IMG/VR virus record: IMGVR_UViG_3300042804_000010
Direction: 5' to 3' (one strand)
DNA length: 36,614 nucleotides
Source: a virus
Each line of letters opens with the position of its first letter. The first letter of the stretch is position 1. This document shows positions 1 to 26,520 of the stretch, one piece after another. The notes beneath the pieces are model-generated. The model worked only from the letters and a program-made list of their open reading frames with translations, was not told the origin of the DNA and made no database searches. Made by a program: the position numbers and the translations under genes.

Positions 1-127
1 ATATAACCTTGTTTAACCCACTGGTCATAAGGAATTTTATCTTCTCTGGAACGCTGCTCTAATAAATCTTCTGGCAGCCAATACATAGATAAACAATATA
101 TTGTCGGATCATCTGGAAGCATAAAAA
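1..127. repeat. 127-bp terminal direct repeat identical to 36488-36614 (circularisation overlap of the contig)
   Basis: Direct comparison: window start atataaccttgtttaacccactgg...tggaagcataaaaa reappears at the window end, and the terL reading frame is continuous across it. Confidence 0.9.
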
Positions 128-11552: not shown

Positions 11553-11564
11553 TGGTTTACCTCC

Positions 11565-12341
11565 TTATTTAAGATACTGAACATTATAATTTCCTCTCTC
11601 AGTCTCAACTCTTTCTGGCTTACCTTTGATAGTTAGCCAACCTCTGACCTTTTCCATTACTGATGGATAATACTGTTCTTGAGAGTATTGATGACTGCCA
11701 TTACTGCCCATTGTGGTCTCAATTTCGTTAGGTTTAAGGTCTAGATCATTAATTATTGCTCCGATTGCCTGATGATGCGGATTGCCAGAGTTACTATAAA
11801 CACCAATTCTTTTTGCTATATCGGTGCAAGTTAATAGATTATCTGGCAACTGCACATGAAAAGGTAGATTAATTCCAGCTTCTTCATATATACTTTTAAT
11901 CGCTGTCATTTTAGATGAAGCGCTTAATTGCAATTCTTCCATCAAGGGCATTAACATTTTTGTAGACTCTAAAGCGAATTGTTTGCCATCAACCGATTGA
12001 TTATTTTGAGCTATACCTCTTGCTCGCTTTTCCACTTCAATAAAGTATTTTCTTATTTTTCTACCTTGCCGATTTCTCTCAACCATTCCAAGTTCTTTCC
12101 CCATATCCAAACTTAAAACATATTCTTTAGGAGGCCTGCCACCTGAACTTTCCCCCAAAAATGTGGAAAAGTCTATTCCTTTTTCAAATCCATAATCAGA
12201 TACTCTTTGACTAATCCAAGTTGAAAAATCTCTTTCGACACCCAAATAGTCATGTAATTCTCTAGCATTCACAACTTTTTCGCCTTCATCGGTTAAATAA
12301 ACTGGAATTAATTTGTTTTCTAAGATTTTTAGAGCATTCAT
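11565..12341 (-). CDS. Phage antirepressor (AntA-domain)
   Basis: N-terminus ...VVNARELHDYLGVERDFSTWISQRVSDYGFEKGIDF matches the AntA-type antirepressor pattern; second gene of the leftward early operon after cro. Confidence 0.65.
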   Translation of the reverse strand: MNALKILENKLIPVYLTDEGEKVVNARELHDYLGVERDFSTWISQRVSDYGFEKGIDFSTFLGESSGGRPPKEYVLSLDMGKELGMVERNRQGRKIRKYFIEVEKRARGIAQNNQSVDGKQFALESTKMLMPLMEELQLSASSKMTAIKSIYEEAGINLPFHVQLPDNLLTCTDIAKRIGVYSNSGNPHHQAIGAIINDLDLKPNEIETTMGSNGSHQYSQEQYYPSVMEKVRGWLTIKGKPERVETERGNYNVQYLK

Positions 12342-12369
12342 TTTACCCCTCCTAATAATTTTGTGTGAT

Positions 12370-12582
12370 TTAGCTGTACTCTATTTCTAAAAAAAGACGA
12401 CTGATCGGAATTTGCAACTCATCAGAAACTTTCCTGAGCGTTTCAATAGATGGGTTACTATCTCCTCTTTCTATCGCTGCTATAGTTGAATGTGCTAACC
12501 CTATCCGGCGTGCCAACTCTCGCTGGCTCCATTCTAAATCTTCTCTATATTTTTTTATAGCCAGCCCGATGTGTTTATCCAT
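12370..12582 (-). CDS. Cro-like XRE-family HTH regulator
   Basis: 70-aa ORF ...WSQRELARRIGLAHSTIAAIERGDSNPSIETLRKV...; divergent from the cI-like gene. Confidence 0.75.
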   Translation of the reverse strand: MDKHIGLAIKKYREDLEWSQRELARRIGLAHSTIAAIERGDSNPSIETLRKVSDELQIPISRLFLEIEYS

Positions 12583-12650
12583 TTTATCACCTCCAAAAAT
12601 CTCGGAATAATCTCTAAAAATTCTCGAAAAATAGCTCTAACTTGTTTATC

Positions 12651-12679
12651 ATTGTATTTTATAACTGCACAAAAATCAA
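12651..12679 (-). promoter_or_regulatory. Candidate leftward early promoter (TTGATT-17-TACAAT on minus strand)
   Basis: Plus-strand aatcaa at 12674-12679 and attgta at 12651-12656 are the reverse complements of the -35 and -10 boxes, 17 bp apart, upstream of the cro-like gene. Confidence 0.45.
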
Positions 12680-12773
12680 GCAAAATATTTCCTTTCTAAA
12701 GCATTTAAGACTTATCAGATTAAATTAACTAATTATTATTAACTTATACTGCTTTATACTCGTACACTCATAC

Positions 12774-12802
12774 TTTACAAAATAATACATTAATATTATA
12801 AT
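12774..12802 (+). promoter_or_regulatory. Candidate repressor promoter (TTTACA-17-TATAAT)
   Basis: -35 at 12774-12779, -10 at 12797-12802, 17-bp spacer; about 45 bp upstream of the cI-like ATG (12846), which is preceded by RBS AAAGGGGGGA. Confidence 0.5.
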
Positions 12803-12845
12803 ATAAGTGTACAGTATTTAAAACACAAAAAAAGGGGGGATTTAG

Positions 12846-13490
12846 ATGACATTAGGTGAAAAGATTAGAGAACTAAGGACAAAAAAGGGCTATTCTCTTC
12901 GAAAATTGTCGAAAATAGTTGGTTCTGCTTCTCACTCCTATATTGCCGCTATAGAACGTGGCGAAAATAACCCATCATTAAACATATTGTCAGATATCGC
13001 AAATGTTCTTGGAGTATCAACAGCTTATTTATTGGACATTTATGATAAAGAAAAGTCTGGAAATGAAAAGTTTAAGATTGATGAACATTCAGGGGAGATT
13101 TCAAAAGAGGAGATGATTAGTGTGCCGATTGTCGGAGATGTAGCAGCAGGTGAACCAATACTCGCAGACGAACATATAGAAGGATATAGACAAATGCCCG
13201 CAAAAGACATCAATGGGGAATGTTTTTTGCTCAAAATTAAAGGCGATAGCATGATCAATGCAGGGATTCATGAAAACGATTTGGTATTAATCAGACAGCA
13301 GGCAAAAGTTGAGACCGGAGATATTGCAGCTGTAATGATTGATAATGAAAATGCGACATTAAAAAGAGTTTATTTTCATGACAATTCAGTTTTGCTGCAG
13401 TCTGAAAACTTGAAATATAAGCCGATGAATATTAATAATGAAAGAGTTAAAATTATTGGTAAAGCAATAGAAGTTATTCACAAACTATAA
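12846..13490 (+). CDS. CI-like repressor (N-terminal XRE HTH plus C-terminal S24/LexA-like peptidase domain)
   Basis: N-terminus LRKLSKIVGSASHSYIAAIERGENNPSLNIL; C-terminus ...PIVGDVAAGEPILA...KGDSMINAGI...KRVY with Ser/Lys dyad spacing typical of autocleaving repressors. Confidence 0.8.
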   Translation: MTLGEKIRELRTKKGYSLRKLSKIVGSASHSYIAAIERGENNPSLNILSDIANVLGVSTAYLLDIYDKEKSGNEKFKIDEHSGEISKEEMISVPIVGDVAAGEPILADEHIEGYRQMPAKDINGECFLLKIKGDSMINAGIHENDLVLIRQQAKVETGDIAAVMIDNENATLKRVYFHDNSVLLQSENLKYKPMNINNERVKIIGKAIEVIHKL

Positions 13491-13502
13491 AGGAGGAGAA
13501 TT

Positions 13503-14192
13503 ATGAAGAAAATTTTAATTGTTTTTTTAATTTTATTTATTTTATCTAGCTCAGCAACTGCGGCTAGAAACTGGGAGAAGCAATATACATTAGATAATTT
13601 ATTTATTGATTCTACAGCAAACGGCGAACTTTGGGAAACAATAGATAAAGCTGACCGAATAAATACAGCTTTAGTTTACAATAAAGTAAAAATAGGCCAG
13701 CCGCTATTAATTTCTTATTCAAGGTATGGTGCAAATGCAGAAATCAGCGAGTATTACAAAAATGAAGAATTTATAAAAGAAAACCAGCGATTTTATCCTA
13801 CGGGTTCATATTTGAAAATGGTGTACATGGGGCAAGACGCACAAAATAATATTAGATTAAAGGTTTATGATCATTATTATGGCAACGAAAAGAAACTTTA
13901 TAAAAGAATCAATTCGCTAATTGAAGAAGATTATCCCTCAGAGGAAGATAAAGAGGGAATGCTTGAGAGAACCGGCATTGAAAGTGAAAAAAAGTTGAAA
14001 GAGGTTATAGTTAAGATAATCACTTTAGATAGTGATTATTATTATTTTGACTTAGACACCGATTCAGCCCCTTATGATGATTTTCAATTATCTTCTAATA
14101 AAATTTTAAAATTTTGGGATGAATCAATACCACCGATCAAGATTAAAACAAATATGATAGACTCAACAATAAAAGTTGAAATAGTCAACTAG
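13503..14192 (+). CDS. Secreted protein with signal peptide (candidate lysogenic-conversion/exclusion factor)
   Basis: N-terminus MKKILIVFLILFILSSSATAA is a signal-peptide-like segment; sits between the repressor and integrase; RBS AGGAGGAG. Confidence 0.55.
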   Translation: MKKILIVFLILFILSSSATAARNWEKQYTLDNLFIDSTANGELWETIDKADRINTALVYNKVKIGQPLLISYSRYGANAEISEYYKNEEFIKENQRFYPTGSYLKMVYMGQDAQNNIRLKVYDHYYGNEKKLYKRINSLIEEDYPSEEDKEGMLERTGIESEKKLKEVIVKIITLDSDYYYFDLDTDSAPYDDFQLSSNKILKFWDESIPPIKIKTNMIDSTIKVEIVN

Positions 14193-14209
14193 AAAGGAAG
14201 GTTAAATTT

Positions 14210-14476
14210 ATGACAGATGTAATTATAGCGATACTTTGGTTTGTCGCAGGAGGGAATTGGTTATTATCAGCCGTAGTTTTTTATTTAGCTTTCAATGGAA
14301 TGCATTCAATGGCCCTTGCGGGTTCTAATTACGGCTTATTTGGAGCCTTTCAAGGCATAGCTCTTGGGGTTGCGCTTATTATAGTCGGCACTATTTTTGG
14401 AGCTGTGGCAGTTTTAATTTCAGAAGTTCGTGATTCAAAACAATTATTACAAAATATAATCAAAGAAGGTGATTAA
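14210..14476 (+). CDS. Small integral membrane protein (2-3 TM helices)
   Basis: 88 aa, Gly/Ala-rich hydrophobic segments (IIAILWFVAGGNWLLSAVVFYLAF; GIALGVALIIVGTIFGAVAVLI); stop abuts the integrase start. Confidence 0.5.
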   Translation: MTDVIIAILWFVAGGNWLLSAVVFYLAFNGMHSMALAGSNYGLFGAFQGIALGVALIIVGTIFGAVAVLISEVRDSKQLLQNIIKEGD

Positions 14477-15622
14477 ATGCCTCATATTGAAAAAACTGCA
14501 AATGGAAAGTATAAAGCTGTCATTGAAGTTGGCGCCGGCGCCAGGCGAAAAAGAAGAACAAAAACATTCGAAAGAAAAAAAGATGCAAAAAGCTGGCAAG
14601 CTAATATGTTAGTTGATCAAGAAAAAGGCAGATATGTTTCTTCCGCATCATTAACTGTCGGTGATCATATGCTTGACTGGCTGGATAACGAGAAGAAACC
14701 GCACATCGCCACAACTACTTATGATAATTACAAAAACCGTATAAAAACTTATATTATACCCGAAATAGGATATATTCCATTGCAGGAACTGGAGCCCTTC
14801 CATATTAGCCGATTTATGGGCTATTTAAGAAAGAATGGAAGTGTCAGGAATGATGGCGGCCTGTCTGAAAATACTCTCAAGAAAATATATGTAGTGCTTA
14901 ATTCAGCGATGGAAAAGGCAGTCCAGTGGCGGTTAATAAAATATAACCCAGTCCAGGCGATTGAATCACCACAACCGAAAAAGAAAGAAGCTAAGTCAAT
15001 GAGCTTTGAGGAAGTTCAAAAATTACTTGATTCAGTTAACGATAAATTTATGCACACATTTTTGAGTTTTGCTGTCCTTACCGGAATGAGAAAAAGTGAA
15101 ATGCTTGGCCTAGAGTGGTCAGAAGTTGATTTAGAGAATGAAACTGTCGAAGTAAAAAAGCGATTAGTTGTTAATCAAAATAGTGATCAGGGAATTGAGC
15201 ATGAAGAAGCGACAAAGCGAGAAGCCAGCAGAAGAGTGATTGCGATTCCTTCGAAACTGGCAAAAATATTGAAAAATTATAAGGTCCATCAAACAGAATT
15301 AAGGCTGCAGCTGGCGGATGAATATAATGATGAAAAGCAATTTGTTTTCTGTAAGTCTGACGGGAATCCTTATTATCCGTCAACAATTACTAGAAATGCA
15401 AAAAAGGCCATACTCAGAGCTGATTTAAGCTCCGAATACAGCCTTCATACATTGCGCCATACATTCGCTACCTTGCAACTTAAAACCGGGACAGATGCCA
15501 AAACTATACAAGAAATGCTCGGTCATGGGAATATCTCCACTACTATGGATATATACTCTCATGTTGATATTGACATGCAGAAAGAAGCCGCAAAGAAATT
15601 AGAAAATGAGATTGTTATTTAG
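14477..15622 (+). CDS. int: Tyrosine integrase (site-specific recombinase)
   Basis: C-terminal catalytic pattern ...HTLRHTFATLQL...LGHGNISTTMDIYSHV (R...HxxR...Y) and N-terminal SAM-like domain. Confidence 0.85.
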   Translation: MPHIEKTANGKYKAVIEVGAGARRKRRTKTFERKKDAKSWQANMLVDQEKGRYVSSASLTVGDHMLDWLDNEKKPHIATTTYDNYKNRIKTYIIPEIGYIPLQELEPFHISRFMGYLRKNGSVRNDGGLSENTLKKIYVVLNSAMEKAVQWRLIKYNPVQAIESPQPKKKEAKSMSFEEVQKLLDSVNDKFMHTFLSFAVLTGMRKSEMLGLEWSEVDLENETVEVKKRLVVNQNSDQGIEHEEATKREASRRVIAIPSKLAKILKNYKVHQTELRLQLADEYNDEKQFVFCKSDGNPYYPSTITRNAKKAILRADLSSEYSLHTLRHTFATLQLKTGTDAKTIQEMLGHGNISTTMDIYSHVDIDMQKEAAKKLENEIVI

Positions 15623-15646
15623 ACCCCTATTCGGGGTCTTTTTTAT
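15622..15646 (+). terminator. Rho-independent terminator after int
   Basis: gacccc-tattc-ggggtc hairpin immediately followed by ttttttt, overlapping the int stop codon. Confidence 0.7.
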
Positions 15647-15678
15647 TTATTATTTTTTAAAAAAGATTGATAAAACTC

Positions 15679-15707
15679 TTGACAGTACCACGCTATCGTG
15701 GTATAAT
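15679..15707 (+). promoter_or_regulatory. Near-consensus sigma70-type promoter (TTGACA-17-TATAAT) with a palindrome in the spacer
   Basis: TTGACA at 15679-15684, TATAAT at 15702-15707; the 17-bp spacer contains ccacg-ctat-cgtgg (5-bp inverted arms); followed by RBS AAAGGAGGA and ATG 15754. Confidence 0.65.
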
Positions 15708-15753
15708 TAAGTTGTAATAAAGAAAGGGAACAAAAATCAAAGGAGGAAAGATA

Positions 15754-16083
15754 ATGAAAAAACAAAAAAGAGTTGTTGGTGAAGTTTATATAGCAATAGG
15801 CAGAAATACACAGAAAGTTGTAGCGGTCGGGGAAAAGAATACTTATGAAAATAAAGAAAAATTAAAAGAGGCTGGTTACAAGTGGGATGCAAGCCAAAAA
15901 GAATGGATAAAAGAAGTTAAAATTGATATGACAGATATAGACCCAAAAAGTAAAGAAGACAATTTAAAAGTAGCAAAAAGAGCAGTTGAAATTTTAAGAG
16001 AACTACAAAAACCAGAATTTATTAACTTAATTGCCGATGAGCAAAGAACAAAAAAGATTATAGAATTTGCTGACAATCACTAA
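15754..16083 (+). CDS. Hypothetical protein (109 aa), first gene of post-int cassette
   Basis: ORF with strong RBS directly downstream of the consensus promoter; no recognisable family. Confidence 0.5.
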   Translation: MKKQKRVVGEVYIAIGRNTQKVVAVGEKNTYENKEKLKEAGYKWDASQKEWIKEVKIDMTDIDPKSKEDNLKVAKRAVEILRELQKPEFINLIADEQRTKKIIEFADNH

Positions 16084-16132
16084 TAAATTTTAGCTCTGCC
16101 GGTGGCTTAATAACCGGCAAAGGAGGATAAAA

Positions 16133-16507
16133 ATGATTATCAAATTAATTTTAGAACAATTCAAAAGCATTGAGCGGAATTATCAAGGTTCAGAAAATTA
16201 TCATCAAAATGAGATTGTGAAGGTTGTTGACCCAGATAGTGAATTTTATGGAGCAACAGGAAAATACAAAGGGTTAAAAGAAAGAAAAATACCACAAGAT
16301 ATTTACGAAGTTGAAATTATATCTTACCTCTGGAAAGTTATGACTTTCAAAGAGGCTTCAGAAAAATATGATGTGGCAGTATCAACATTAAGACATAGAG
16401 CCTCAGACGGAAGATTCGAAGATGGTGATATTAGGAAGTCGGGCAAAACTTGGTTAGTCACAAAATCAGCAATGGACCGGATATACGGAGGTGCAAAAAA
16501 TGACTGA
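16133..16507 (+). CDS. HTH-containing protein (possible excisionase-like DNA-binding domain)
   Basis: RBS AAAGGAGGA; C-terminal ...MTFKEASEKYDVAVSTLRHRASDGRFEDGDIRKSGKTWLV resembles excisionase/MerR-type HTH; lies between int and the candidate attP. Confidence 0.45.
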   Translation: MIIKLILEQFKSIERNYQGSENYHQNEIVKVVDPDSEFYGATGKYKGLKERKIPQDIYEVEIISYLWKVMTFKEASEKYDVAVSTLRHRASDGRFEDGDIRKSGKTWLVTKSAMDRIYGGAKND

Positions 16508-16721
16508 GTTCGAAAAAGCGGCTAAAGATTTACCTGTAGAAGTTAGATATGACCCCATTGACCAAAAGACAGTTGAAGATTTAGTTTTTGCAGCAGAGCT
16601 AGAATTAGATATAGTAGAAGGCAACGAAATACATTACAGAGATATGGACGGCAGAACAAAAAGAGGGGTAAAAATCAGGCTTAGAAATTTCATAGAGGAA
16701 TATAAAGACAACTCAGTTTAG
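16491..16721 (+). CDS. Hypothetical small acidic protein (76 aa)
   Basis: ORF overlapping the previous gene by 17 nt (translational coupling). Confidence 0.45.
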   Translation: MQKMTEFEKAAKDLPVEVRYDPIDQKTVEDLVFAAELELDIVEGNEIHYRDMDGRTKRGVKIRLRNFIEEYKDNSV

Positions 16722-16746
16722 CAGCTAGATTTTCCTTTTCTAAAAC

Positions 16747-16769
16747 TTTTCGGCACTAGCTCGGCACTT
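16747..16769. repeat. Direct repeat copy 1 (ttttcggcactagctcggcactt) flanking the tRNA-like core
   Basis: Shares TTTT-GGCAC-n4-TCGGCACTT with 17018-17040; contains two CGGCACT units 11 bp apart. Confidence 0.5.
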
Positions 16770-16788
16770 TAGCCGGGCTTTTATTTTT
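16760..16788 (+). terminator. Candidate terminator for the plus-strand cassette
   Basis: ctcggc-acttta-gccggg stem (one G-U pair) followed by cttttattttt. Confidence 0.35.
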
Positions 16789-17187: not shown

Positions 17188-17493
17188 TTATTTTGACTTG
17201 CTTCGAAACTGGCCTACCACATTCATTAGATCAACTATGACATCTATAGCTTTGTCGACTAACCCCATCACAGTCTCTTTTTTGAAAGGAAGATCTACAG
17301 TATTATCTGCTGCATCATAGACGGCTTCGACTAATTCAACAATTGCTCTCTTCTTTTCCGGCCCATGCTTCTTCCCATCGTCAGTGTCAGCCTCTTCAAA
17401 AATTTCAACGAGTTCTTTAACTTCTTTAAGTACTCCAAAAGCCACCTGAAAAACAGTCCAAATTTTACTAATTGTAGTTAACATATTTAACAT
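17188..17493 (-). CDS. Putative holin (N-terminal TM helix, charged C-terminal domain)
   Basis: 101-aa ORF with N-terminal hydrophobic LTTISKIWTVFQVAFGVL; last gene of the lysis cassette. Confidence 0.5.
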   Translation of the reverse strand: MLNMLTTISKIWTVFQVAFGVLKEVKELVEIFEEADTDDGKKHGPEKKRAIVELVEAVYDAADNTVDLPFKKETVMGLVDKAIDVIVDLMNVVGQFRSKSK

Positions 17494-17511
17494 CTCCTTT
17501 TAGTTTGATAA

Positions 17512-17904
17512 TTATCTATTATCCCATCTTGCTTTGTAACCGCGAACATCACAATGAACAAAACTATTATATTTTCCTATACCATCAAAACCAGCTTTTT
17601 CAGCAAAACTTGCCATTACATCTGCATCAACCCCAGCTGGCAACCTTACATCAGCTGCAGTTCCTTCCAGATGTTGAGATTTTTTTGCACCTCCTATCTT
17701 TTGATTATAAGCTGGAGTTCTGTAGCCTGAGTTAATTATAAGCGGTGTATCTTTACCTTTGTGATCAGAAACTAGCCCTCTCAGTATTTCTAGCTTTTTT
17801 GGAAGCTCTGGGTCTAGCTTAACTGATTGGGTTTCATCCCGGCATTGAAATTCCCTTAAATTAAAATGTTTAGTTATTTGAAAATCATTTACTGACATTT
17901 GCAT
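17512..17904 (-). CDS. Endolysin, peptidase M15 family (zinc D-Ala-D-Ala carboxypeptidase-like)
   Basis: ...FNLREFQCRD...INSGYRTPAYNQKIGGAKKSQHLEGTAADV...HCDVR: His/Asp zinc-ligand pattern of M15 peptidases. Confidence 0.75.
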   Translation of the reverse strand: MQMSVNDFQITKHFNLREFQCRDETQSVKLDPELPKKLEILRGLVSDHKGKDTPLIINSGYRTPAYNQKIGGAKKSQHLEGTAADVRLPAGVDADVMASFAEKAGFDGIGKYNSFVHCDVRGYKARWDNR

Positions 17905-18143
17905 TAACCTCCCATCAATTTTACAGCCATCCCAACAATCATACTAGACATTACAGTTATCATTACTGTAATAGTCCAAGTTGGTCTGCCCTGTAAATTA
18001 TCAATAATTTTAGCTATGTCTTGTTTCATATTTTGTATATCTCCCTCATCAATATTGTTAATATCTTTTTTTAATGATCTTCCAAACTCACATCCTTCTT
18101 TGTTTAGCGTTTCTGGATTGATTTCTGCGTGTCCATTCGCCAT
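17904..18143 (-). CDS. XhlA-like holin-associated membrane protein
   Basis: 79 aa; N-terminal charged/coiled region and C-terminal TM helix WTITVMITVMSSMIVGMAV; abuts the endolysin gene. Confidence 0.55.
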   Translation of the reverse strand: MANGHAEINPETLNKEGCEFGRSLKKDINNIDEGDIQNMKQDIAKIIDNLQGRPTWTITVMITVMSSMIVGMAVKLMGG

Positions 18144-18237: not shown

Positions 18238-19332
18238 CTATATGCTTTTTAATTTTAGCCGGTCGCCTAAATCCAATTGCTCCAGTATATGATCATCTAG
18301 TTTGTTTATCACTGACATTTTTAAATTATAACTATCGCAATGTTTAATTATTCCCAAGTAGGAATTAACACTGGCATTAATATCCTCGATATCCACCTTC
18401 CCTTCAAAATATTTTTTATTAAGATATTTAAATCGCTTTTTCATTTTCTTTTTAGTACTTTTCCTCAATTTGCTATAACTCGGATATAGAACATATCCGC
18501 AAAAATCTATTCCTTCATTCACATGTCCAACAGTAGTTTTATTATTAAGCTGCAGCTGGAGATAATCTTCTAAAAATATTTCTATTTCCTGTCTGATTGT
18601 ATGAAGCTTCTTTTTATCTTTTCCCAAAAGTACAAAGTCATCCATATACCGGACATAGTATTTTACTTTCAAGGTGTGCTTTACAAACTTATCTAAAAAA
18701 TCAAGATAAATATTTGCAAAAAGCTGGCTCATTAAGTTGCCGATTGGTGTGCCAATCCCTTTAACTTTTTTATTTTCAAAGAAGTGATCACCTAACTGGA
18801 TACCAAACTCACCATCTTCACTTTTGATTATCTGCCAGATTAATTCCAATGTATCTCTGCAGCTAATTTTCCTTTTTATTAACTGAAATAATCTTTTATG
18901 AACTATCCTGTAAAAATATTTTGAAACGTCTGCTTTTAAAAAATATGTTTTTCCGGGCTTTCGGTCCATTATCCTTAACTTGTCCTGTAATTGATATGCA
19001 GTGAAATGAGTACCCTTTCCTCTGCGACAAGCCCCGCTATATCTGTAAAATGCCTTATCAAATATCGGGTAAAGCTTTCGATATATGCTCCACTGGACCA
19101 CTCTGTCTTTAAAAGGCAAAGCCATGATCAGTCTTTTCTTTGGCTCATAGACATAAAACTGCCTGTATTTTCCCTGTTCATATGTTTTCCACATTAATTC
19201 ATTCTGTATCTCAATTAAATTTCTCTCTAAATTATAATTAAATTTCAGCACTTCCGGTTTGTATCTTTTCCTCTTTTGAGCTTTTTGAGTTGCTATTTCT
19301 AAATTATGATAATCAGTAATTTTCTCAAACAA
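18238..19332 (-). CDS. Diversity-generating retroelement reverse transcriptase
   Basis: RT motifs FYVYEPKKRLIMALPFKDRVVQ, GTHFTAY, IGTPIGNLMSQLFANIYL (DGR-type SQ in place of the usual QGxxxSP), YVRYMDDFVLLG (YxDD); about 360 aa, as for Bordetella phage Brt; apparent TTG start at 19332. Confidence 0.9.
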   Translation of the reverse strand: MFEKITDYHNLEIATQKAQKRKRYKPEVLKFNYNLERNLIEIQNELMWKTYEQGKYRQFYVYEPKKRLIMALPFKDRVVQWSIYRKLYPIFDKAFYRYSGACRRGKGTHFTAYQLQDKLRIMDRKPGKTYFLKADVSKYFYRIVHKRLFQLIKRKISCRDTLELIWQIIKSEDGEFGIQLGDHFFENKKVKGIGTPIGNLMSQLFANIYLDFLDKFVKHTLKVKYYVRYMDDFVLLGKDKKKLHTIRQEIEIFLEDYLQLQLNNKTTVGHVNEGIDFCGYVLYPSYSKLRKSTKKKMKKRFKYLNKKYFEGKVDIEDINASVNSYLGIIKHCDSYNLKMSVINKLDDHILEQLDLGDRLKLKSI

Positions 19333-19586
19333 ATTTTTGACTGTCTTAGGAATAAATAATCACCACTCTCTATATATTAGGTGAAATATTCAAGCCCGCT
19401 CAAATGAGAACGGGCTCATAACTAATCGTGACAGCTTTCGATATTTCGCTACTTGCTATCTAATTAGTAATTCATATGTTTTCCTGGAGGGACCTCAAAA
19501 TGTATCTCAGGAAGGACTAAAGGCCTGTTCATCTTTTTGAACACTGCAGCAGAGGCCTTGACCCCATACTGTCTGATAAATTTGTA

Positions 19587-19703
19587 GATGAGCACAGGCG
19601 CCACGCACGCCAATGTTAGTGTTCACGTTCCACGGGTTATTGTTCGAGTTGACCGTCCGAGCACCGCAGATGCTACCATTGTTGAAGTTGCCACCGGCGA
19701 GGA
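19587..19703 (-). repeat. DGR template repeat (TR), 117 bp
   Basis: 102 of 117 positions identical to VR (20143-20259); all 15 differences are at TR adenines on the coding strand; carries 11 AAY codons in the VR frame. Confidence 0.9.
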
Positions 19704-19727
19704 CCAACGCCCTTAGCCCTATAAAAT

Positions 19728-20081
19728 TTATTTTTTATTTTCACAAGACTTAATCCAGCCACCCAGAAGGCGGCCAATTTCGTCTATTTTTTTGACTACA
19801 ATTTCATGTTTTCTTATAGATAAAAAATGCATATCTTTAGCAAGTCTAATTTTAACTTTTAGCTTTTTAAGTTCATCATCTATCCGGTTTAAAAATCTTA
19901 TCTTACTTCCTCGAGCTTCATTTGCATCTATTATCAATTCCATAATTCTATCTAATTTATTTTTGATTTTTGTACACATTGCAAACTTTTCTCTTTTTGG
20001 AAAATTATCAATTACTGGGTAAAAATAAAGAGTAAAGTCATAATGTTTTCTAAATATCACGAGATCATCTGTGTCTGCCAA
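19728..20081 (-). CDS. avd: DGR accessory variability determinant (Avd)
   Basis: 117-aa basic helical protein located between the target gene and TR, as in canonical DGRs; TTG start preceded by AAGGAG with a 7-nt spacer. Confidence 0.75.
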   Translation of the reverse strand: MADTDDLVIFRKHYDFTLYFYPVIDNFPKREKFAMCTKIKNKLDRIMELIIDANEARGSKIRFLNRIDDELKKLKVKIRLAKDMHFLSIRKHEIVVKKIDEIGRLLGGWIKSCENKK

Positions 20082-20131
20082 ATCATCACTCCTTCAAGTT
20101 CTAAACCTAACCAAAAACCATTATCAGATTA

Positions 20132-21169
20132 TCAGGCACTCTGATGAGCACAGGCGCCACGCACGCCAACGCTAGTGTTCACGTCCCACGGGCGAAAGTC
20201 CGAGCTGACCGTCCGAGCACCGCAGAGGCCACCACTGCTGAAGCCGCCACCGGCGAGGAGGCCAATAATAGCCACATTATTTTGCATGTAAGCTTCACCA
20301 TGCTGATAACCGCTGTCTTTACCTGCATTAAGCACATCATACCAACTGAATGAAGTTGAGCCAGTATTTCTATAAGTATACTCGTCTAATCTTTCCCAAA
20401 GGTTACCAGCGCAATCTACAAGGTTATAGCAAGAAACTGCTTGTTCTACAGTTCCAGTTGAAGTTCGACCTGAATTACTTGAACTAGACCAAGCGGCATT
20501 ATTATCATTTTCGTGGCCTTCTGGGCTACCATAGGCAGCCATTAACCATTCCTGCCTGGTTAATTTTCTTTTGTTGACATTTGCAAGACCCCTAATGAAA
20601 TCATAATCATTATAACCCTCAGTTCCTGAGACCGGGGTCGCATTGTATTCACTCACAAGTTCAGTTTCCGGCCAGGTTCCGCTGCCTTCACTTGCAATAT
20701 ATATATCAGCCCAAAAGTTTGATACCTTGACCATTCCAGTAGGGTCACAGGCAGGTCTGTAGTTCAATGACCAGACTGAGTTTGGCAGTATATTAACTGC
20801 AATTGAGGCTGTATCATCATATCTTTGAGCGTTTGTTCTGATGCGGCCATAATGAAAACCACCAATTTTTCTGCTATTATTTTCTGTATACCCGTCTGGA
20901 TAAGTAGAGTTGATAGAAATAACAAAATCGGGCTCTGCATCAGCTGATGGCTGCAAAGCATATATATAATAGTTTTCGCCAAGCGTGAAACTTACAAAAC
21001 TGCCGTCGCTATCAGCTTCAGTCAAAATAGTATCAGTTTCTTTTTTGAGATTCTGTCTATCAATTCTCAAAGCTAATGGAGGTACTGTAACTTCATCAGC
21101 TGCACTCTTTTCAATATGGCCTTTGAAATTGTAGAATGAAGGTGAATCAGCTCCAACAAAAGTTAACAT
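20132..21169 (-). CDS. DGR target protein: distal tail/receptor-binding protein with C-terminal C-type-lectin/FGE-like fold carrying the VR
   Basis: C-terminal ...SCYNLVDCAGNLWERLDEY...LLAGGGFSSGGLCGARTVSSDFRPWDVNTSVGVRGACAHQSA; VR occupies the last about 39 codons; last gene of the tail module. Confidence 0.85.
   Translation of the reverse strand: MLTFVGADSPSFYNFKGHIEKSAADEVTVPPLALRIDRQNLKKETDTILTEADSDGSFVSFTLGENYYIYALQPSADAEPDFVISINSTYPDGYTENNSRKIGGFHYGRIRTNAQRYDDTASIAVNILPNSVWSLNYRPACDPTGMVKVSNFWADIYIASEGSGTWPETELVSEYNATPVSGTEGYNDYDFIRGLANVNKRKLTRQEWLMAAYGSPEGHENDNNAAWSSSSNSGRTSTGTVEQAVSCYNLVDCAGNLWERLDEYTYRNTGSTSFSWYDVLNAGKDSGYQHGEAYMQNNVAIIGLLAGGGFSSGGLCGARTVSSDFRPWDVNTSVGVRGACAHQSA
20143..20259 (-). 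repeat. DGR variable repeat (VR), 117 bp, at the 3' end of the target gene
   Basis: Aligns to TR 19587-19703; the coding-strand 3' end is a GC-rich invariant segment ggcgtgcgtggcgcctgtgctcatc (IMH-like). Confidence 0.9.
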
Positions 21170-21477: not shown

Positions 21478-22179
21478 TTATCTAACCTCCATTGCTAATG
21501 AGCCGTCAATCATTTTTAGCTCGTAAATATCGCCTGTTGTCTCATCTATCAAGTTGTTTTCTGGATTTGAGCCGTCCGGGCCAGCCTTCACAAGCCCATA
21601 TTCGACTTTCTGAATTGTTGCATCTATCACTGTATCAAACAGCACTATAGTTGTTTCATCATTGACTCCATCATAATTTGCTGATTCTACAGCTGAATAA
21701 ACTGAGCTTGCGTCTAGAGTTGCTTTGATTTTTCTATTAGTGACGAATGTATCTATATAGTCACCAGGCACTGTAAAAGTATCAGCGCTTACATAAGTTG
21801 CAGTTAATGCGCTGTCAATCCATTCAGTCATATTTTCAGCAAGGTCAGATTTGATAGTTCCGTCTTCATTAAGAGCAACTTCTAGCCGCTCCCAGAGAGT
21901 GTTTTTTGTTCCTCTCGAAACTCTTAAATCCTTAATATAAGGATTATATTCATTCTGCAGCACCCACTCAGACCCATTCCAAAACTTCATTTTTGCATTT
22001 GCCCAACCTTCCGAAATGTCTAACCAGGGCATCCCTTGATAAGTATCAGTTGGCGCTGTTTCTCCTGCAAATTGAGTAACAATAGCTAAAAAGTTGCCAT
22101 ATAAAACTTGTTTAAGGCCGGGACCATTAGCGTCAAGCCCCTCTTTATTTGTCGTTCTTATATCAAAATCTTGAGACAT
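21478..22179 (-). CDS. Hypothetical tail fibre/baseplate-associated protein (233 aa)
   Basis: ORF immediately downstream of the J-like gene; structural role inferred from position only. Confidence 0.45.
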   Translation of the reverse strand: MSQDFDIRTTNKEGLDANGPGLKQVLYGNFLAIVTQFAGETAPTDTYQGMPWLDISEGWANAKMKFWNGSEWVLQNEYNPYIKDLRVSRGTKNTLWERLEVALNEDGTIKSDLAENMTEWIDSALTATYVSADTFTVPGDYIDTFVTNRKIKATLDASSVYSAVESANYDGVNDETTIVLFDTVIDATIQKVEYGLVKAGPDGSNPENNLIDETTGDIYELKMIDGSLAMEVR

Positions 22180-22191
22180 GTCACCACTCCT

Positions 22192-24933
22192 TTAATATCC
22201 TTCGATTATAATCTTTTCTGCAGTTCCTCCAACATCATTATTGTTAATGTCAAATATCTGCACATCTACACTATCATTTGTTTTATTCGTGAAATTAGCA
22301 TATTTCATTGTTGATCCATCTTGTAGCAAGTAGTAATTATATGATCTTGGCACTTCATAATACTCTACTCCGTAATCACTGTAATTAATTGTTGTTCCGC
22401 CTACGGGTACTGACAGATTATCAATTTCTAACTCTAAATCAGGCACATCAAAAAATTGTTTAATTTCATTAAGCTCAAATTCAGCAGTTTCAGTTTCCAG
22501 CTGAAAATTAAATTTAAACTGGCAGTATCTAAATTTGTATTCTCCAGTCATGTATTCTTGCCAGTCCGACCATTCAACATTATCGTCAGAAAATCTAACA
22601 TATATTTCAGTCTCATAGATAGCAGGTGGATTGTCTAAACTGTTATTAGGAAAATCATCCAATCCACGATTGGGGAAACTCAACAAGCTTAATCCTAAGT
22701 CTTGGAAAAACCAATCTTTTTTGAGCCTTATATCTGTTCGGCCAACTCTGACTGTATCAATAATTTCTGTCATATATTCAGCGCTAAAATCATAATCAGG
22801 CAAACCGTCTGCAAAAGCAGGAATATCAGGCCAATCATCAAGATTATAGCCGGCTAAGTCTTCTAAATTATACATGTGGAAGAATGCTATCTTGCCGTTA
22901 ATATTATCTATATTATCTAGTGTTGCATTATCTATATAATCAAGTTCATTTCTTTCGATAATTATATTAAGCTCCTGGCCAGTACCTGAAACTTCAAAAA
23001 TTACTGATGTGAAATCACTTGAATACTGTCTAACTCTATCAATTGTCTTAATCATATACATATGTGTTCCATCAATTTCATTTTCAGAAGTCCATCTGTC
23101 TCCAGTAAGTTTAGTCCCGAGAACTTCTCCATTATCCCAGTCTGTTCCTTTTCTAATTTCATAACCTAAAACATCTGGCTCATTTACTTCCTGCCATTTG
23201 AATATTAATTTTGCACCTTTTTGAGCGACTTGGAAGGTGCCAGGTGCTGCAGGTTTATTATCTTTACCTGATATAACTATTTTTCTTGAAGTAACTCCAG
23301 AACTTGTAATACCTCTATATTTTGAAACTGTCCGGACTCTTACAATATAATGAGAATTAACTTTTAAATTAGATATTTCAAAGCTGTCAGCTTCTGTTTC
23401 TCCGGCTATTCTATAACTTTTACCATCTTCTGAATAATCAATTACTGCATGATCAACTCTTTCATCATCAGGAATATCAAAATCTACGATTAAATTACTG
23501 ATTAAATTCCCATCCATGGTAGTATAACCGTATTCAGAAACAGAAAGATTATTTACTTCATTAGGAGCTTCAAAAGGATTCTTAAATTCAGAGCCGTAAT
23601 TCTCCTGCTGCACAACTCCATCATCAGTATAAATAGATTCATTATATTCAAGAGCAGTAATAGTCATATTATGATCTTCGGCTTCTTCTATTTCCATAAT
23701 TCGGAAAGGTTTATCAACCCAACCTGGTCTTTTATGGGTAACTAATATTTTATCGCCGACTTCTGCTTCAATATCTTTTATGCTTGCTCCAAAACTGATT
23801 ATTTGAGTGCAAAACTTTGATTTCTTTTGATAATATCTAGCTTCTCGCCCTGCTTGACTAAAACGATTAATACCATTAAGAGTTATGGTTTTAATCGATT
23901 CTCCAGGAACACTATTATCAATAAATCTCGCTCCAATAGTTTCAAAATTTTCAGCTGGATCTGTATATTCAACGACTACTTCTCTAAGTCTTTCTTTGCG
24001 TGATGTTCCGCGCCTTGCAAAACTGCCTACAATTATATTGTCAGTTTCTTCATTATCTGAAAATACAAAGCTTTGAGTTGCTATATCTGGCTTATCTATT
24101 TTAATTTTTAATTTTCCATCGGACCAAATTAAAAACGCTCTAAAAGTTGATAACATTTCATTTAGAATGTCTAATGCTGAACTTTTAGCATCAATGACAA
24201 AATCTAATTCAAACCTTTTTTTTCCATCGACAAGCTGATCAGCATATTCTGCAGCTTCTTTGAAACTTTCTAGATCGATAAAAGCATCAGAAACACCAAA
24301 ACCAAATCTCATTTTGCTTATAAAATCTAAAATACACCACGCGGGATTATTACTATATTTAGTAACCCAACTGCTGCCAGTCCAAACTCTTACATGCCTA
24401 CCCTTGATTATTGCGGTCATAGTTGGAGTTCCTGATGTTTCTAATTTATTAGCGTCAAGAGTTGTCGAATAGTGGGCAAGGAAAGGAAATGTTTGACCGC
24501 GTTCATTTTTCGACCAGGCAGATTGTTTTCTGTAACCTAATTTAGTTTCTGCGCTAATTGTTTTATCGTCAGCTTTAATTTCTTCTATTGATTCAATTGG
24601 CCCTTCTGAAATTCCAACCTGAATGTCCATAAGGTTATCATTTTCGCCGCTGATTTTTTGATTAATTATGTTACCAGCTACAAGATTTCTGCCATAGACA
24701 ACCGGAACTGGTATCTGGTGACTTTTGGTATTGCTTATCGGTCCAAACGAATATGTTGGCGAATTCTTTGATTGATTCATACTTTCTTGAAATTCTTTGG
24801 CCTCTTTATAATTATCGTAAGAGTTACCGACTGAAAAACCTAACATTGCTCCGGCTGCTATAGTCATCCCTCCGACTGTCGATGCAGCTGCTGCAGCTCC
24901 TGCTGCTATTCCGACTAGTGCTCCTACTCCCAT
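22192..24933 (-). CDS. Host-specificity protein J-like central tail fibre/tip protein
   Basis: 913 aa; follows the M/L/K-like genes as in lambda-type tail tips; Gly/Ala-rich hydrophobic N-terminus, large beta-rich body. Confidence 0.6.
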   Translation of the reverse strand: MGVGALVGIAAGAAAAASTVGGMTIAAGAMLGFSVGNSYDNYKEAKEFQESMNQSKNSPTYSFGPISNTKSHQIPVPVVYGRNLVAGNIINQKISGENDNLMDIQVGISEGPIESIEEIKADDKTISAETKLGYRKQSAWSKNERGQTFPFLAHYSTTLDANKLETSGTPTMTAIIKGRHVRVWTGSSWVTKYSNNPAWCILDFISKMRFGFGVSDAFIDLESFKEAAEYADQLVDGKKRFELDFVIDAKSSALDILNEMLSTFRAFLIWSDGKLKIKIDKPDIATQSFVFSDNEETDNIIVGSFARRGTSRKERLREVVVEYTDPAENFETIGARFIDNSVPGESIKTITLNGINRFSQAGREARYYQKKSKFCTQIISFGASIKDIEAEVGDKILVTHKRPGWVDKPFRIMEIEEAEDHNMTITALEYNESIYTDDGVVQQENYGSEFKNPFEAPNEVNNLSVSEYGYTTMDGNLISNLIVDFDIPDDERVDHAVIDYSEDGKSYRIAGETEADSFEISNLKVNSHYIVRVRTVSKYRGITSSGVTSRKIVISGKDNKPAAPGTFQVAQKGAKLIFKWQEVNEPDVLGYEIRKGTDWDNGEVLGTKLTGDRWTSENEIDGTHMYMIKTIDRVRQYSSDFTSVIFEVSGTGQELNIIIERNELDYIDNATLDNIDNINGKIAFFHMYNLEDLAGYNLDDWPDIPAFADGLPDYDFSAEYMTEIIDTVRVGRTDIRLKKDWFFQDLGLSLLSFPNRGLDDFPNNSLDNPPAIYETEIYVRFSDDNVEWSDWQEYMTGEYKFRYCQFKFNFQLETETAEFELNEIKQFFDVPDLELEIDNLSVPVGGTTINYSDYGVEYYEVPRSYNYYLLQDGSTMKYANFTNKTNDSVDVQIFDINNNDVGGTAEKIIIEGY

Positions 24934-24937
24934 TTCC

Positions 24938-25324
24938 TCACCTCACTCTCCATATACTATGCAATCGCTTTTCCCATTTTAAAAATTTACTAATTCTCGC
25001 TTTTGAATTATCAAAAATATGAATAAATCTATAGTTATCAACTAAAACACCCGCATGTCTTGGCATTCCTCCGACTTCAAAAACAACAACATCTAAGGGC
25101 TGCTTATTTTTTTTATTTATCTGATCACAATATAAACTTAATCCTTCGGGCAGTCTATTTGGATTTTCTTTCATCCAGTCAGGTGGCAAAATTTCTCCAT
25201 CGTTATCTGGGAGATTAATATTATTATCTGCTAAAACATCGACAACCAGTCCTAAACAGTCATAACCTTCTTCCCCTCGGCCGTTAAACTTATATTCTTT
25301 ACCTAAATACTTTTCTAAATCCAT
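24938..25324 (-). CDS. NlpC/P60-family tail peptidase (lambda K-like)
   Basis: 128 aa with catalytic Cys context EGYDCLGLVVDV and downstream His (PRHAGVLV). Confidence 0.6.
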   Translation of the reverse strand: MDLEKYLGKEYKFNGRGEEGYDCLGLVVDVLADNNINLPDNDGEILPPDWMKENPNRLPEGLSLYCDQINKKNKQPLDVVVFEVGGMPRHAGVLVDNYRFIHIFDNSKARISKFLKWEKRLHSIWRVR

Positions 25325-26163: not shown

Positions 26164-26520
26164 TTAAACCAGCTCCTTTAATTCAATTGAAAATGAGTGA
26201 GCTTTATTGTCATATACTTCATCGCTTAATTTAGACTGGTTGAATCTAACTTTTATGTCAGACTCAATTATGTTTCCTTCTGAGTCTTTATAATCCCAGA
26301 GAAAAGGTTCATATTCGCCCTTTCTGGCATAGAAAAAGTTTGCTATTTCTTCTGCATCATTGTTATAATTGCTTGTTTTGTCAAATTCTAGTTTGAACAC
26401 TCTGAAAGGCAAACCTTTGGGGCGCCTCTGTTCTCTACCGCCTTCCATTTTGGTGATAAGAGTATTGGTGTTAATATCAACAACCCATGCTTTTTTGTAC
26501 TTGTAATCAAATTTTTCCAA
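26164..26520 (-). CDS. Minor tail protein M-like
   Basis: 118 aa directly after the tape measure gene; ...EPFLWDYKDSEG...KVRF...SFSIELKEL pattern. Confidence 0.5.
   Translation of the reverse strand: MEKFDYKYKKAWVVDINTNTLITKMEGGREQRRPKGLPFRVFKLEFDKTSNYNNDAEEIANFFYARKGEYEPFLWDYKDSEGNIIESDIKVRFNQSKLSDEVYDNKAHSFSIELKELV

What the first reader, a model, noticed from the sequence alone, without database searches (positions are those of the whole stretch)
13503..14476. Secreted protein plus small membrane protein between repressor and integrase: candidate superinfection-exclusion or conversion pair
A 229-aa protein with a clear signal peptide and an 88-aa Gly/Ala-rich multi-TM protein are co-transcribed with the repressor on the lysogenic strand, so they are probably expressed in the prophage state. 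Neither resembles structural or replication proteins.
Basis: inference. Interest (0 to 1): 0.5.

Follow-up and report, generated by a model that had tools for sequence, protein, structure and literature searches.

The report
Two prophage envelope-protein cargo genes
Between the repressor and integrase of a complete temperate phage lie two real, separately exchangeable cargo genes, one for an exported soluble protein of a rare family with no known relatives in sequence or fold and one for a tiny two-helix membrane protein; they most likely alter the lysogen's cell envelope, for example to keep out other phages, but this is unproven.

Summary
ORF229 (13503-14192) and ORF88 (14210-14476) are real genes under purifying selection. 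They sit 12, 17 and 0 nt from their neighbours in a repressor-ORF229-ORF88-integrase unit, with a promoter-like site upstream and the first terminator right after the integrase. ORF229 has a conserved Sec signal peptide with a signal-peptidase-I type site and no lipobox, LPXTG motif or cysteine. ORF88 is a Gly/Ala-rich hairpin of two hydrophobic segments. Neither matches Pfam, PHROGs, NCBIfam, PADLOC or deposited phages, and neither is homologous to Ltp or Sie2009, which occupy the same slot in model phages. A confident ORF229 model (pLDDT 81) has no significant structural neighbour. The pair is not obligate: each gene occurs without the other in sister phages, with cassette-precise boundaries. 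However, another ORF229-family member is translationally coupled to a different small two-TM protein. Unexpectedly, distant ORF229 relatives are the fourth cistron of gerA germinant-receptor operons, and others sit beside integrases of satellite-like elements. Best reading: independent lysogeny-module envelope cargo genes, probably for superinfection exclusion. A germination-related role for ORF229 is a live alternative. Function is inferred, not shown.

The parts
12774..12802 (+). Promoter-like site (TTTACA-17-TATAAT) for the lysogenic-strand operon, in the divergent region facing the cro-like gene (12370-12582, minus strand)
   Evidence: 11 of 12 consensus matches. A consensus match only; function is inferred.
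12846..13490 (+). CI/LexA-type repressor (HTH_3 + Peptidase_S24), first gene of the unit
   Evidence: PF00717 2.6e-31; PF01381 5.1e-14; phrog_4 7.4e-41
13503..14192 (+). ORF229: Sec-exported soluble alpha/beta protein. Signal peptide is about codons 1-20 (13503-13562). Founding phage member of a rare, unannotated Firmicute family
   Evidence: No family hit. Cassette homology to the sister phage spans 13489-14207 at 70% nt identity.
14210..14476 (+). ORF88: Gly/Ala-rich small membrane protein with two hydrophobic segments, conserved GxxxG motifs (G49/G53, G60/G64) and a charged C-terminal tail
   Evidence: It is a precise presence/absence cassette (14208-14470 is missing in sister phage L001).
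14465..14473 (+). Integrase Shine-Dalgarno (GAAGGTGAT) embedded in the last ORF88 codons (K-E-G-D). ORF88 stop and integrase start abut (TAAATG)
   Evidence: The same KEGD end occurs on the unrelated 76-aa protein that precedes the integrase in L019.
14477..15622 (+). Tyrosine integrase, last gene of the unit
   Evidence: 91% nt and 94% aa identity to the sister-phage integrase.
15621..15639 (+). Intrinsic-terminator-like hairpin plus T-run that closes the unit
   Evidence: 7-bp stem, 5 GC pairs, TTTTTTATTT tail

Best explanation
ORF229 and ORF88 are two independently exchangeable accessory ('moron') cassettes in the variable slot between the immunity genes and the integrase of a complete, roughly 36.5-kb temperate siphovirus that carries a DGR and probably infects an uncultured Firmicute. 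They are read from the repressor promoter, so a lysogen would make them (inferred). ORF229 is exported by Sec, cleaved by signal peptidase I and released as a soluble acidic alpha/beta protein of about 25 kDa outside the cytoplasmic membrane. It has no conserved catalytic-type residues, so it most likely binds an envelope component. ORF88 inserts as an N-in/C-in two-helix hairpin that probably oligomerises through its GxxxG motifs. The most likely purpose of both, separately, is to alter the lysogen's envelope so that other phages cannot adsorb or deliver DNA (superinfection exclusion). They are positional and functional analogues of Sie2009 and Ltp, not homologues. ORF88 is the stronger exclusion candidate. 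For ORF229 I commit only to extracytoplasmic binding of an envelope component, the same kind of partner its gerA-operon relatives presumably meet in the spore. Shown here: gene reality, export and membrane features, operon layout, cassette mobility, absence of known homologues. Inferred: expression in lysogens, topology, and any anti-phage effect.
For: Gene reality and selection: dN/dS 0.15-0.44. Operon layout: gaps of 12, 17 and 0 nt, promoter at 12774-12802, first terminator at 15621-15639, integrase SD inside ORF88. Export: signal peptide with a -3/-1 site conserved family-wide, no lipobox or LPXTG. Membrane hairpin with invariant G49, G53, G60 and the ISEVR tail. Same slot as proven exclusion genes: Tuc2009 int-sie2009-repressor and TP-J34 int-ltp-metalloprotease-CI (PMC7693887; PMC3952083). 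The sister phage reproduces the TP-J34 order exactly: HTH_3 repressor, ImmA-like metalloprotease (phrog_87 1.9e-36), ORF230, integrase. Cassette behaviour: flanks are 91-99% identical while ORF229 is 58% aa / 70% nt identical with saturated dS, ORF88 is a clean indel, and ORF88 pairs with three repressor alleles and two integrase types. Other family members sit next to integrases of satellite-like elements behind their own TATAAT promoter. No match to regulatory, excision, structural or replication families.
Against: There is no sequence or structural similarity to any known exclusion or defence protein, so the function rests on position and localisation. ORF229 has no anchor; known Sie proteins are nearly always tethered, with periplasmic Glo as the cited exception (PMC3952083), and in a single-membrane host a soluble protein would diffuse away. 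Distant relatives in gerA operons suggest a non-defence biochemical role. The host and its envelope type are unknown. The unit also contains the integrase, so it may be most active at establishment rather than during maintenance of lysogeny. The promoter and terminator calls are consensus matches only (29 promoter-like sites found versus 18 expected).
Confidence: 0.4

Rival explanations
1. ORF229 is a captured germinant-receptor accessory or spore-envelope protein. The prophage (and satellites) use it to change spore germination or spore-envelope properties of a spore-forming host, which would be lysogenic conversion of dormancy rather than phage exclusion.
For: Three full-length family members (91-103 bits against the family HMM) lie 27-57 nt after gerAC on the same strand, with an RBS and no terminator, in gerAA-gerAB-gerAC operons (GerA 2.3e-192, Spore_permease 9.5e-66, Spore_GerAC). 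The synteny holds across members only 42-63% identical to each other. Phages of spore-formers are known to carry sporulation genes (PMC10294663). Some germinant-receptor operons do carry modulating extra subunits (PMC12554149).
Against: The window protein is only about 25% identical to the ger-linked clade and belongs to a different clade. In the phage it is driven by the repressor operon, and in satellites by a sigmaA-like TATAAT promoter, whereas germinant-receptor operons are forespore sigmaG-dependent (PMC12554149). The ger linkage is a single evolutionary lineage of loci. No other sporulation gene is in the phage. It is not shown that the phage's host sporulates.
Confidence: 0.2
2. The two genes form a functional two-component unit after all. 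The small membrane hairpin tethers or receives the otherwise unanchored secreted protein at the membrane surface, analogous to the two-component lactococcal SieF7/2AB.
For: ORF229 lacks any anchor. A second independent context couples an ORF229-family member (P0007, 39% identical) by a 4-nt overlap to a different 82-aa two-TM protein. That second membrane family also travels with ORF88 homologues. The ger loci carry an adjacent 76-77-aa membrane protein. Two-component Sie systems in this slot are known (PMC7693887).
Against: ORF229 homologues occur without any ORF88-family or 76/82-aa-family gene in sister phages and satellites, and ORF88 homologues occur without ORF229. The small membrane families are not demonstrably homologous to each other (hhalign 17% and below 7%). 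Gene order is reversed between the two coupled contexts. Small membrane ORFs are common in cargo-gene loci.
Confidence: 0.2
3. ORF88 is a holin-like or RexB-like membrane effector of abortive infection (or a lysis-timing or toxin element) rather than an entry blocker.
For: Its architecture of two TM segments, GxxxG motifs and a charged cytoplasmic C-tail resembles class II holins or pinholins (own knowledge). The order cI, large protein, small membrane protein echoes lambda cI-rexA-rexB (own knowledge). Data.
Against: No match to holin or Abi models. It lies in the lysogeny operon, while the lysis cassette is elsewhere (17188-18143). The would-be RexA position is filled by an exported protein and is empty in other phages. 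Constitutive expression of a lethal pore in lysogens is unlikely.
Confidence: 0.1
4. ORF229 is a diffusible secreted factor with a function directed at the host's ecology, such as an adhesin, a binding protein for a hydrophobic ligand or lipid, or a toxin or immunity-related protein, unrelated to phages or spores.
Confidence: 0.1

Closest known systems
Ltp, the superinfection-exclusion lipoprotein of Streptococcus thermophilus phage TP-J34
   Same: Same slot and order in the lysogeny module: CI repressor, metalloprotease-motif protein, ltp, integrase. The sister phage's arrangement of HTH_3, ImmA-like protein, ORF230, integrase is identical in layout. Ltp is exported to the outer face of the membrane and transcribed in the prophage (PMC3952083).
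   Different: Ltp is a 142-aa lipid-anchored protein with a lipobox Cys, whereas ORF229 has no Cys and is unanchored. There is no homology (hhalign probability 0.7%, signal peptide only). In the TP-J34 record a terminator and a separate integrase promoter follow ltp; here the genes abut the integrase.
Sie2009 of Lactococcus phage Tuc2009 and related lactococcal Sie proteins, including the two-component SieF7/2AB
   Same: A gene between integrase and repressor, membrane-associated, expressed from the prophage, which blocks DNA injection of heterologous phages (PMC7693887). SieF7/2AB shows that two-gene systems exist in this slot.
   Different: Sie2009 is a 173-aa protein with one N-terminal anchor. 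ORF88 is an 88-aa two-segment hairpin and ORF229 a cleaved secreted protein. No homology (hhalign probabilities 0.2-0.5%).
T4 Imm and Sp, HK97 gp15 (small inner-membrane exclusion proteins) and Vibrio Glo (soluble periplasmic exclusion protein)
   Same: Small membrane proteins that block genome entry are the nearest mechanistic analogue for ORF88 (own knowledge). Glo is the cited precedent for a soluble, unanchored exclusion protein (PMC3952083).
   Different: Those are from Gram-negative systems in other genomic positions. Homology was not tested here because no reference sequences were fetched, and no PHROG or Pfam model of them matched.
Lambda cI-rexA-rexB operon
   Same: A repressor promoter drives a larger protein and a small membrane protein in the lysogen (own knowledge).
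   Different: RexA is cytoplasmic and RexB has four TM segments (own knowledge). ORF229 is exported, ORF88 has two hydrophobic segments, and the two genes are separable.
Accessory ('D') subunits of GerA-family germinant receptors (YfkS, GerUD)
   Same: An extra cistron attached to a gerA-type operon that may modulate germination (PMC12554149). ORF229-family members occupy such a fourth-cistron position.
   Different: To my knowledge the described D subunits are small membrane proteins. The ger-linked ORF229 relatives are secreted soluble proteins of about 205 aa with no Pfam match, and the window gene itself is not in a ger operon.

Membership tests
Ltp-type exclusion lipoproteins | Lipobox with an invariant Cys for the lipid anchor | tested here: not met
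   ORF229 has no Cys, and no lipobox occurs in any of 17 family members. Ltp has LTAC.
Ltp-type exclusion lipoproteins | Sequence homology to Ltp | tested here: not met
   hhalign of the family profile against Ltp gives probability 0.7% with 11 aligned columns in the signal peptide. ORF88 against Ltp gives 0.1%.
Ltp-type exclusion lipoproteins | Location in the lysogeny module between the immunity genes and the integrase | tested here: met
Ltp / Sie2009 (function) | Blocks DNA injection of a superinfecting phage | not testable with these tools
   Needs plaque, adsorption and DNA-entry assays. The host is unknown.
Sie2009-type lactococcal Sie | Sequence homology to Sie2009 (about 170 aa with a single N-terminal membrane anchor) | tested here: not met
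   hhalign probability is 0.5% for the ORF229 family and 0.2% for the ORF88 family. The architectures differ.
Known anti-phage defence systems (PADLOC-DB v2) | Match to any defence-protein model | tested here: not met
   ORF229's best hit is E 0.033 (LeoBC, 11 bits). ORF88 has none.
Lambda Rex-like two-component abortive infection | Cytoplasmic sensor plus four-TM channel, inherited together | tested here: not met
   ORF229 is exported. ORF88 has two hydrophobic segments. The genes occur separately.
Class II holin / pinholin | Two TM segments with a charged C-terminus | tested here: inconclusive
   The architecture is compatible, but no holin model matches.
Class II holin / pinholin | Encoded in the lysis cassette next to the endolysin | tested here: not met
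   The lysis cassette is at 17188-18143 on the other strand. ORF88 is in the lysogeny operon.
   No such domain in either protein. The excisionase-like HTH_59 protein is a different gene at 16133-16507.
ORF229 family (new, unnamed; includes the gerA-operon fourth cistrons) | Signal peptide, then W...LWE, YP...Y.G.D..GNI.L.VY, and the C-terminal K.I.F...LIPP.KI.TN..S.I.VEI.N motifs | tested here: met
   Alignments A3 and A5. The profile search found 15 representatives among 1.84 billion. HMM scores are 91-232 bits across contexts.
Germinant-receptor operon component | Encoded within a gerA-type operon | tested here: not met
   True for L035-L037 but not for the window gene, which lies between the repressor and the integrase.

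The most novel reading that the evidence does not exclude
The ORF229 family is an undescribed exported accessory component of GerA-type germinant receptors that temperate phages, satellite-like islands and a ParA-bearing element have repeatedly captured. In lysogens the phage copy, alone or tethered by a small hairpin membrane protein, would re-tune when spores of the host germinate (or mask the same envelope partner in vegetative cells). That would be the first germination-receptor-linked gene used for lysogenic conversion.
Probability: 0.12. Interest if true: 0.75.

Novelty: new variant of a known kind. Interest (0 to 1): 0.4.

Why it matters
Prophage genes between the repressor and the integrase are a proven source of exclusion proteins in dairy phages. 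This locus shows the same slot in an uncultured Firmicute phage lineage, probably from anaerobic digesters (one relative comes from a biogas-reactor assembly). The slot is filled combinatorially by at least three unrelated envelope-protein cassettes, none known to current databases. If they exclude phages, they are new exclusion families, one of them unusually unanchored. The link between the secreted family and gerA operons gives a concrete, testable handle on two questions: an uncharacterised fourth germinant-receptor cistron, and whether phages tamper with germination. The practical value is modest until a host is found.

Tried and rejected
- **Family libraries.** Pfam, PHROGs, NCBIfam and PADLOC gave nothing significant for either protein. 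tblastn against 50,697 phage records gave no match.
- **Host identification failed.** Two genome-contig scans gave no ORF229 relative and only a 28%-identity integrase hit in a Bacteroidetes MAG. No tRNAs were found. Cluster look-ups returned only metagenome sources. Searches for SRA and assembly accessions in the literature found nothing.
- **Wider scans.** Viral-contig scans with wider family alignments found nothing new, and the broadest alignment was too diverse to scan with.
- **Sporulation-sigma promoters.** Regex searches upstream of family members gave no hits.
- **Rejected: obligate pair**.
- **Rejected: homology of ORF88 with the 76/82-aa family or the ger-locus 77-aa protein**.
- **Rejected: the conserved KEGD tail as a functional protein motif.** It is the integrase Shine-Dalgarno site.
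- **Rejected: tandem paralogues in L041**.
- **No sporulation-related genes elsewhere in the phage**.

Full report
**1. What is in the sequence.** The window is a complete, circularly assembled temperate phage. It has an exact 127-nt terminal direct repeat, so the genome is about 36.49 kb. It carries an HK97-type capsid and portal, a tape-measure protein, a lambda/GTA-like tail tip and a working diversity-generating retroelement.

On the + strand, between a divergent cro/antirepressor early region and the late genes, the ORF listing finds four genes:
- a 214-aa repressor, 12846-13490
- ORF229, 13503-14192
- ORF88, 14210-14476
- a 381-aa integrase, 14477-15622

The repressor is HTH_3 + Peptidase_S24 and the integrase is a tyrosine recombinase. 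Both small genes have strong Shine-Dalgarno sites.

**2. Are they real genes, and are they co-transcribed?** Both proteins have homologues in other metagenomes. Nei-Gojobori comparisons give dN/dS of 0.15-0.20 for ORF229 and 0.18-0.44 for ORF88, which indicates purifying selection on the protein products.

Several signals point to one transcription unit:
- The intergenic gaps are 12, 17 and 0 nt.
- A TTTACA-17-TATAAT site lies at 12774-12802.
- No terminator-like structure occurs before a clean hairpin plus T-run at 15621-15639, one base before the end of the integrase.
- A separate perfect TTGACA-17-TATAAT promoter follows at 15679-15707 and starts another cassette.

The integrase Shine-Dalgarno GAAGGTGAT lies inside the last four ORF88 codons (K-E-G-D). 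The same KEGD ending occurs on an unrelated 76-aa protein wherever that protein precedes the integrase. This supports translational coupling, and it means the tail similarity is nucleotide-level. Co-transcription with the repressor is therefore well supported. Expression in the prophage state remains an inference.

**3. The proteins.**

*ORF229.* It starts with a textbook n/h/c signal peptide, MKK-ILIVFLILFIL-SSSATA|A. It has no other hydrophobic stretch and no cysteine. The mature protein is predicted to be acidic and about 24.7 kDa. The signal peptide, with small residues at -3/-1 just before a conserved Trp, is kept across the family. No member has a lipobox or an LPXTG motif. The protein should therefore be secreted and soluble, neither a lipoprotein nor wall-anchored.

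*ORF88.* It is 25% Gly+Ala and has two hydrophobic segments, about residues 4-27 and 42-71. G49, G53 and G60 are invariant (GxxxG motifs), as is the ISEVR junction. Its only basic residues lie in the C-terminal tail. I read this as an N-in/C-in hairpin that is prone to oligomerise. The topology is inferred.

**4. Homology and fold.**
- Neither protein matches Pfam, PHROGs, NCBIfam or PADLOC or any of 50,697 deposited phages by tblastn.
- Among 5.8 billion protein clusters each has only three close clusters.
- An exhaustive profile search of 1.84 billion representatives found 15 ORF229-family representatives. All are about 200-232 aa with signal peptides. They share W...LWE, YP...Y.G.D..GNI.L.VY and the C-terminal K.I.F...LIPP.KI.TN..S.I.VEI.N motifs.
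- With 21 sequences AlphaFold gives a confident model (pLDDT 80.9, pTM 0.78). It shows an N-terminal antiparallel beta-sheet (residues 25-123), three helices (129-175) and a small C-terminal sheet.
- Foldseek against PDB and BFVD finds nothing at E <= 0.001.
- No conserved His/Cys/Ser constellation suggests an enzyme.

The fold is either new or only remotely related to those carriers. I treat that resemblance as a lead only.

**5. Pair or independent cassettes?** Context look-ups settle this.
- **Sister phages (L001-L008, L017, L018).** These carry an HTH_3 repressor, an ImmA-type metalloprotease (phrog_87, 1.9e-36) and an ORF230 homologue, followed directly by the integrase. ORF88 is absent.
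- **Other relatives (L016, L019-L023).** These carry an S24 repressor, then an ORF88 homologue, then in some cases a 76-aa two-TM protein, then a different 390-aa integrase. ORF229 is absent.
- **Nucleotide boundaries.** Window against L001 is 96% identical up to 11563. It is unrelated across the immunity genes. It is 70% identical over exactly 13489-14207, which is the RBS plus ORF229. L001 has nothing matching 14208-14470, which is ORF88. The integrase is 91% identical. L001 has nothing matching 15619-16739. From 16740 the two are 99.4% identical.
- **Recombination.** ORF229 alleles differ at saturated synonymous sites (dS 1.2-2.0) while the adjacent integrase has dS 0.38. The alleles were therefore swapped by recombination and did not diverge in place.

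A family-HMM scan of all fetched loci finds ORF229-family and ORF88-family genes together only in the window-type phage. They are not an obligate pair.

There is a caveat. P0007, the nearest outgroup of the phage clade at 39% identity, overlaps by 4 nt with an upstream 82-aa two-TM protein. That protein is a 57%-identical homologue of the 76-aa protein that accompanies ORF88 in L019-L021. The locus carries a ParA-type ATPase and an HTH_17 gene. The two small membrane families are not demonstrably homologous (hhalign 17%, tail only). A looser, recurrent association between the secreted protein and some small hairpin protein therefore remains possible.

**6. Wider contexts of the ORF229 family.**
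- P0023 (about 28% identical to the window protein) lies just downstream of the integrase of an integrative element of about 9 kb. That element has HTH_3, HTH_17, a DUF3987/Toprim primase and ERCC4, and no structural genes, so it is satellite-like. P0023 sits behind its own terminator and a conserved TATAAT box.
- P0020 is in an element with a D5_N primase.
- P0016 is in a region rich in mobile-element genes in an NCBI MAG.
- Most unexpectedly, three full-length members (L035, L036, L037; 91-103 bits against the family HMM) lie 27-57 nt downstream of gerAC. They are on the same strand, have an RBS and are not preceded by a terminator. The operons are complete gerAA-gerAB-gerAC germinant-receptor operons (GerA 2.3e-192; Spore_permease 9.5e-66; Spore_GerAC_N and _C).
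- These three are only 42-63% identical to each other, so the synteny is maintained across diverged lineages. They form their own clade, about 25% identical to the window protein.
- One of them comes from the biogas-reactor assembly LSQX (PMC5985405).

Germinant-receptor operons are usually tricistronic, with an occasional modulating D subunit (PMC12554149). A secreted fourth cistron of about 205 aa is not among the described subunits, as far as I could find.

**7. Comparison with known systems.** The annotated records of Tuc2009 (int, sie2009, repressor, then divergent cro and antirepressor) and TP-J34 (int, ltp, metalloprotease-motif protein, CI, then cro and antirepressor) show the same module logic. 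The sister-phage layout matches TP-J34 gene for gene.

The literature states three relevant points:
- Extra genes between integrase and repressor often encode Sie functions, including two-component ones (PMC7693887).
- Ltp is a prophage-expressed surface lipoprotein that blocks DNA injection (PMC3952083).
- Sie proteins are normally anchored by a TM helix or a lipid, and soluble periplasmic Glo is the exception (PMC3952083).

Direct tests show no homology of either window protein to Ltp or Sie2009 (hhalign probabilities 0.1-0.7%). They are positional analogues, not family members. ORF229's lack of an anchor departs from the norm.

**8. Host.** The host remains unidentified.
- Firmicute affinity is indicated by portal identity of about 54% to Bacillus phage B13 and *C. 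difficile* phages, nucleotide-level similarity of the antirepressor to Listeria, Bacillus and Clostridioides phages, a DnaD-type replication protein, strong SD usage and about 35% GC.
- The lambda/GTA-type tail tip and the compact single-domain endolysins (M15 here, GH108 in relatives) are more typical of phages of two-membrane hosts. I could not decide whether ORF229 ends up in a periplasm or outside a single membrane.

My best-supported account, at confidence about 0.4: two independent lysogeny-module cargo cassettes encode envelope proteins, most likely for superinfection exclusion. ORF88 is the better exclusion candidate. ORF229 is an extracytoplasmic binding protein.

The main rivals are a germination or spore-envelope role for ORF229 (0.2), a tethering two-component unit (0.2), a holin/Rex-like role for ORF88 (0.1) and a diffusible factor acting in the host's environment (0.1).

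This is the familiar kind of locus filled with unfamiliar proteins, so I class it as a new variant of a known kind. Interest is moderate, raised mainly by the gerA-operon connection and the combinatorial cassette slot.

Noticed in passing
window 18238-21169 (RT 18238-19332 -, TR 19587-19703, bAvd 19728-20081 -, VR 20143-20259 inside the mtd-like gene 20132-21169 -): A complete diversity-generating retroelement. TR and VR are 117 nt and 87% identical, and all 15 mismatches fall at TR adenines on the coding strand, so it looks active.
   Followed up: yes
window 1-127 and 36488-36614: An exact 127-nt terminal direct repeat. The window is a circularly assembled complete genome of about 36,487 bp, and contigs of 36,610-36,628 nt recur in other samples.
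   Followed up: partly
window 15679-16779: A second cargo-like cassette after the integrase, with its own perfect sigma70-type promoter (15679-15707) and terminator (16758-16779). It holds a 109-aa ORF, a 124-aa HTH_59/excisionase-like ORF (phrog_2655 3e-15; weak PADLOC mad1 6e-6) and a 76-aa ORF. It is absent from sister phage L001 and replaced by 119+123-aa genes in L012-L014.
   Followed up: partly
L035:726-5481, L036:19-1330, L037:12-1796: gerAA-gerAB-gerAC germinant-receptor operons carrying an ORF229-family secreted protein as a fourth cistron, followed (in L035 and L036) by a convergent 76-77-aa multi-TM protein. This is an undescribed germinant-receptor-linked gene.
   Followed up: partly
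L024:5234-14621 (also L025-L028): A satellite-like integrative element of about 9 kb: integrase, ORF229-family gene P0023, a 295-aa ORF on the opposite strand, HTH_3, HTH_17, a DUF3987/Toprim primase and ERCC4, ending at a second integrase. It is flanked by host dynamin-like and RpiR genes.
   Followed up: partly
L019:6871-7101; L042:1435-1683; L043:585-833: A third small cassette family: two-TM proteins of 76-82 aa. It is found after the ORF88 homologue in some phages, and overlapping an ORF229-family gene (P0007) by 4 nt in a locus with a ParA-type ATPase. It is not demonstrably homologous to ORF88.
   Followed up: yes
window 11564-13488 versus L001:4054-5986: A whole immunity-module swap between otherwise 91-99% identical phages. 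The S24 repressor, cro and AntA antirepressor here are replaced there by an ImmR-like HTH_3 repressor, an ImmA-type metalloprotease and a Bro-N/ANT antirepressor.
   Followed up: yes
window 21478-26520 and 17188-18143: Mixed host-envelope signals. The tail tip is lambda/GTA-like (DUF2460/gpM-like, BR0599, NlpC/P60, Phage-tail_3 + fn3) and the 130-aa M15 endolysin has no wall-binding domain (GH108 + PG_binding_3 in relatives). Replication, portal and antirepressor genes are Firmicute-like. A two-membrane Firmicute host is possible but untested.
   Followed up: partly
window 14465-14476: The conserved C-terminal K-E-G-D of whichever protein precedes the integrase is the integrase Shine-Dalgarno (GAAGGTGAT) read as codons. 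This is an overlap constraint that mimics protein-motif conservation.
   Followed up: yes
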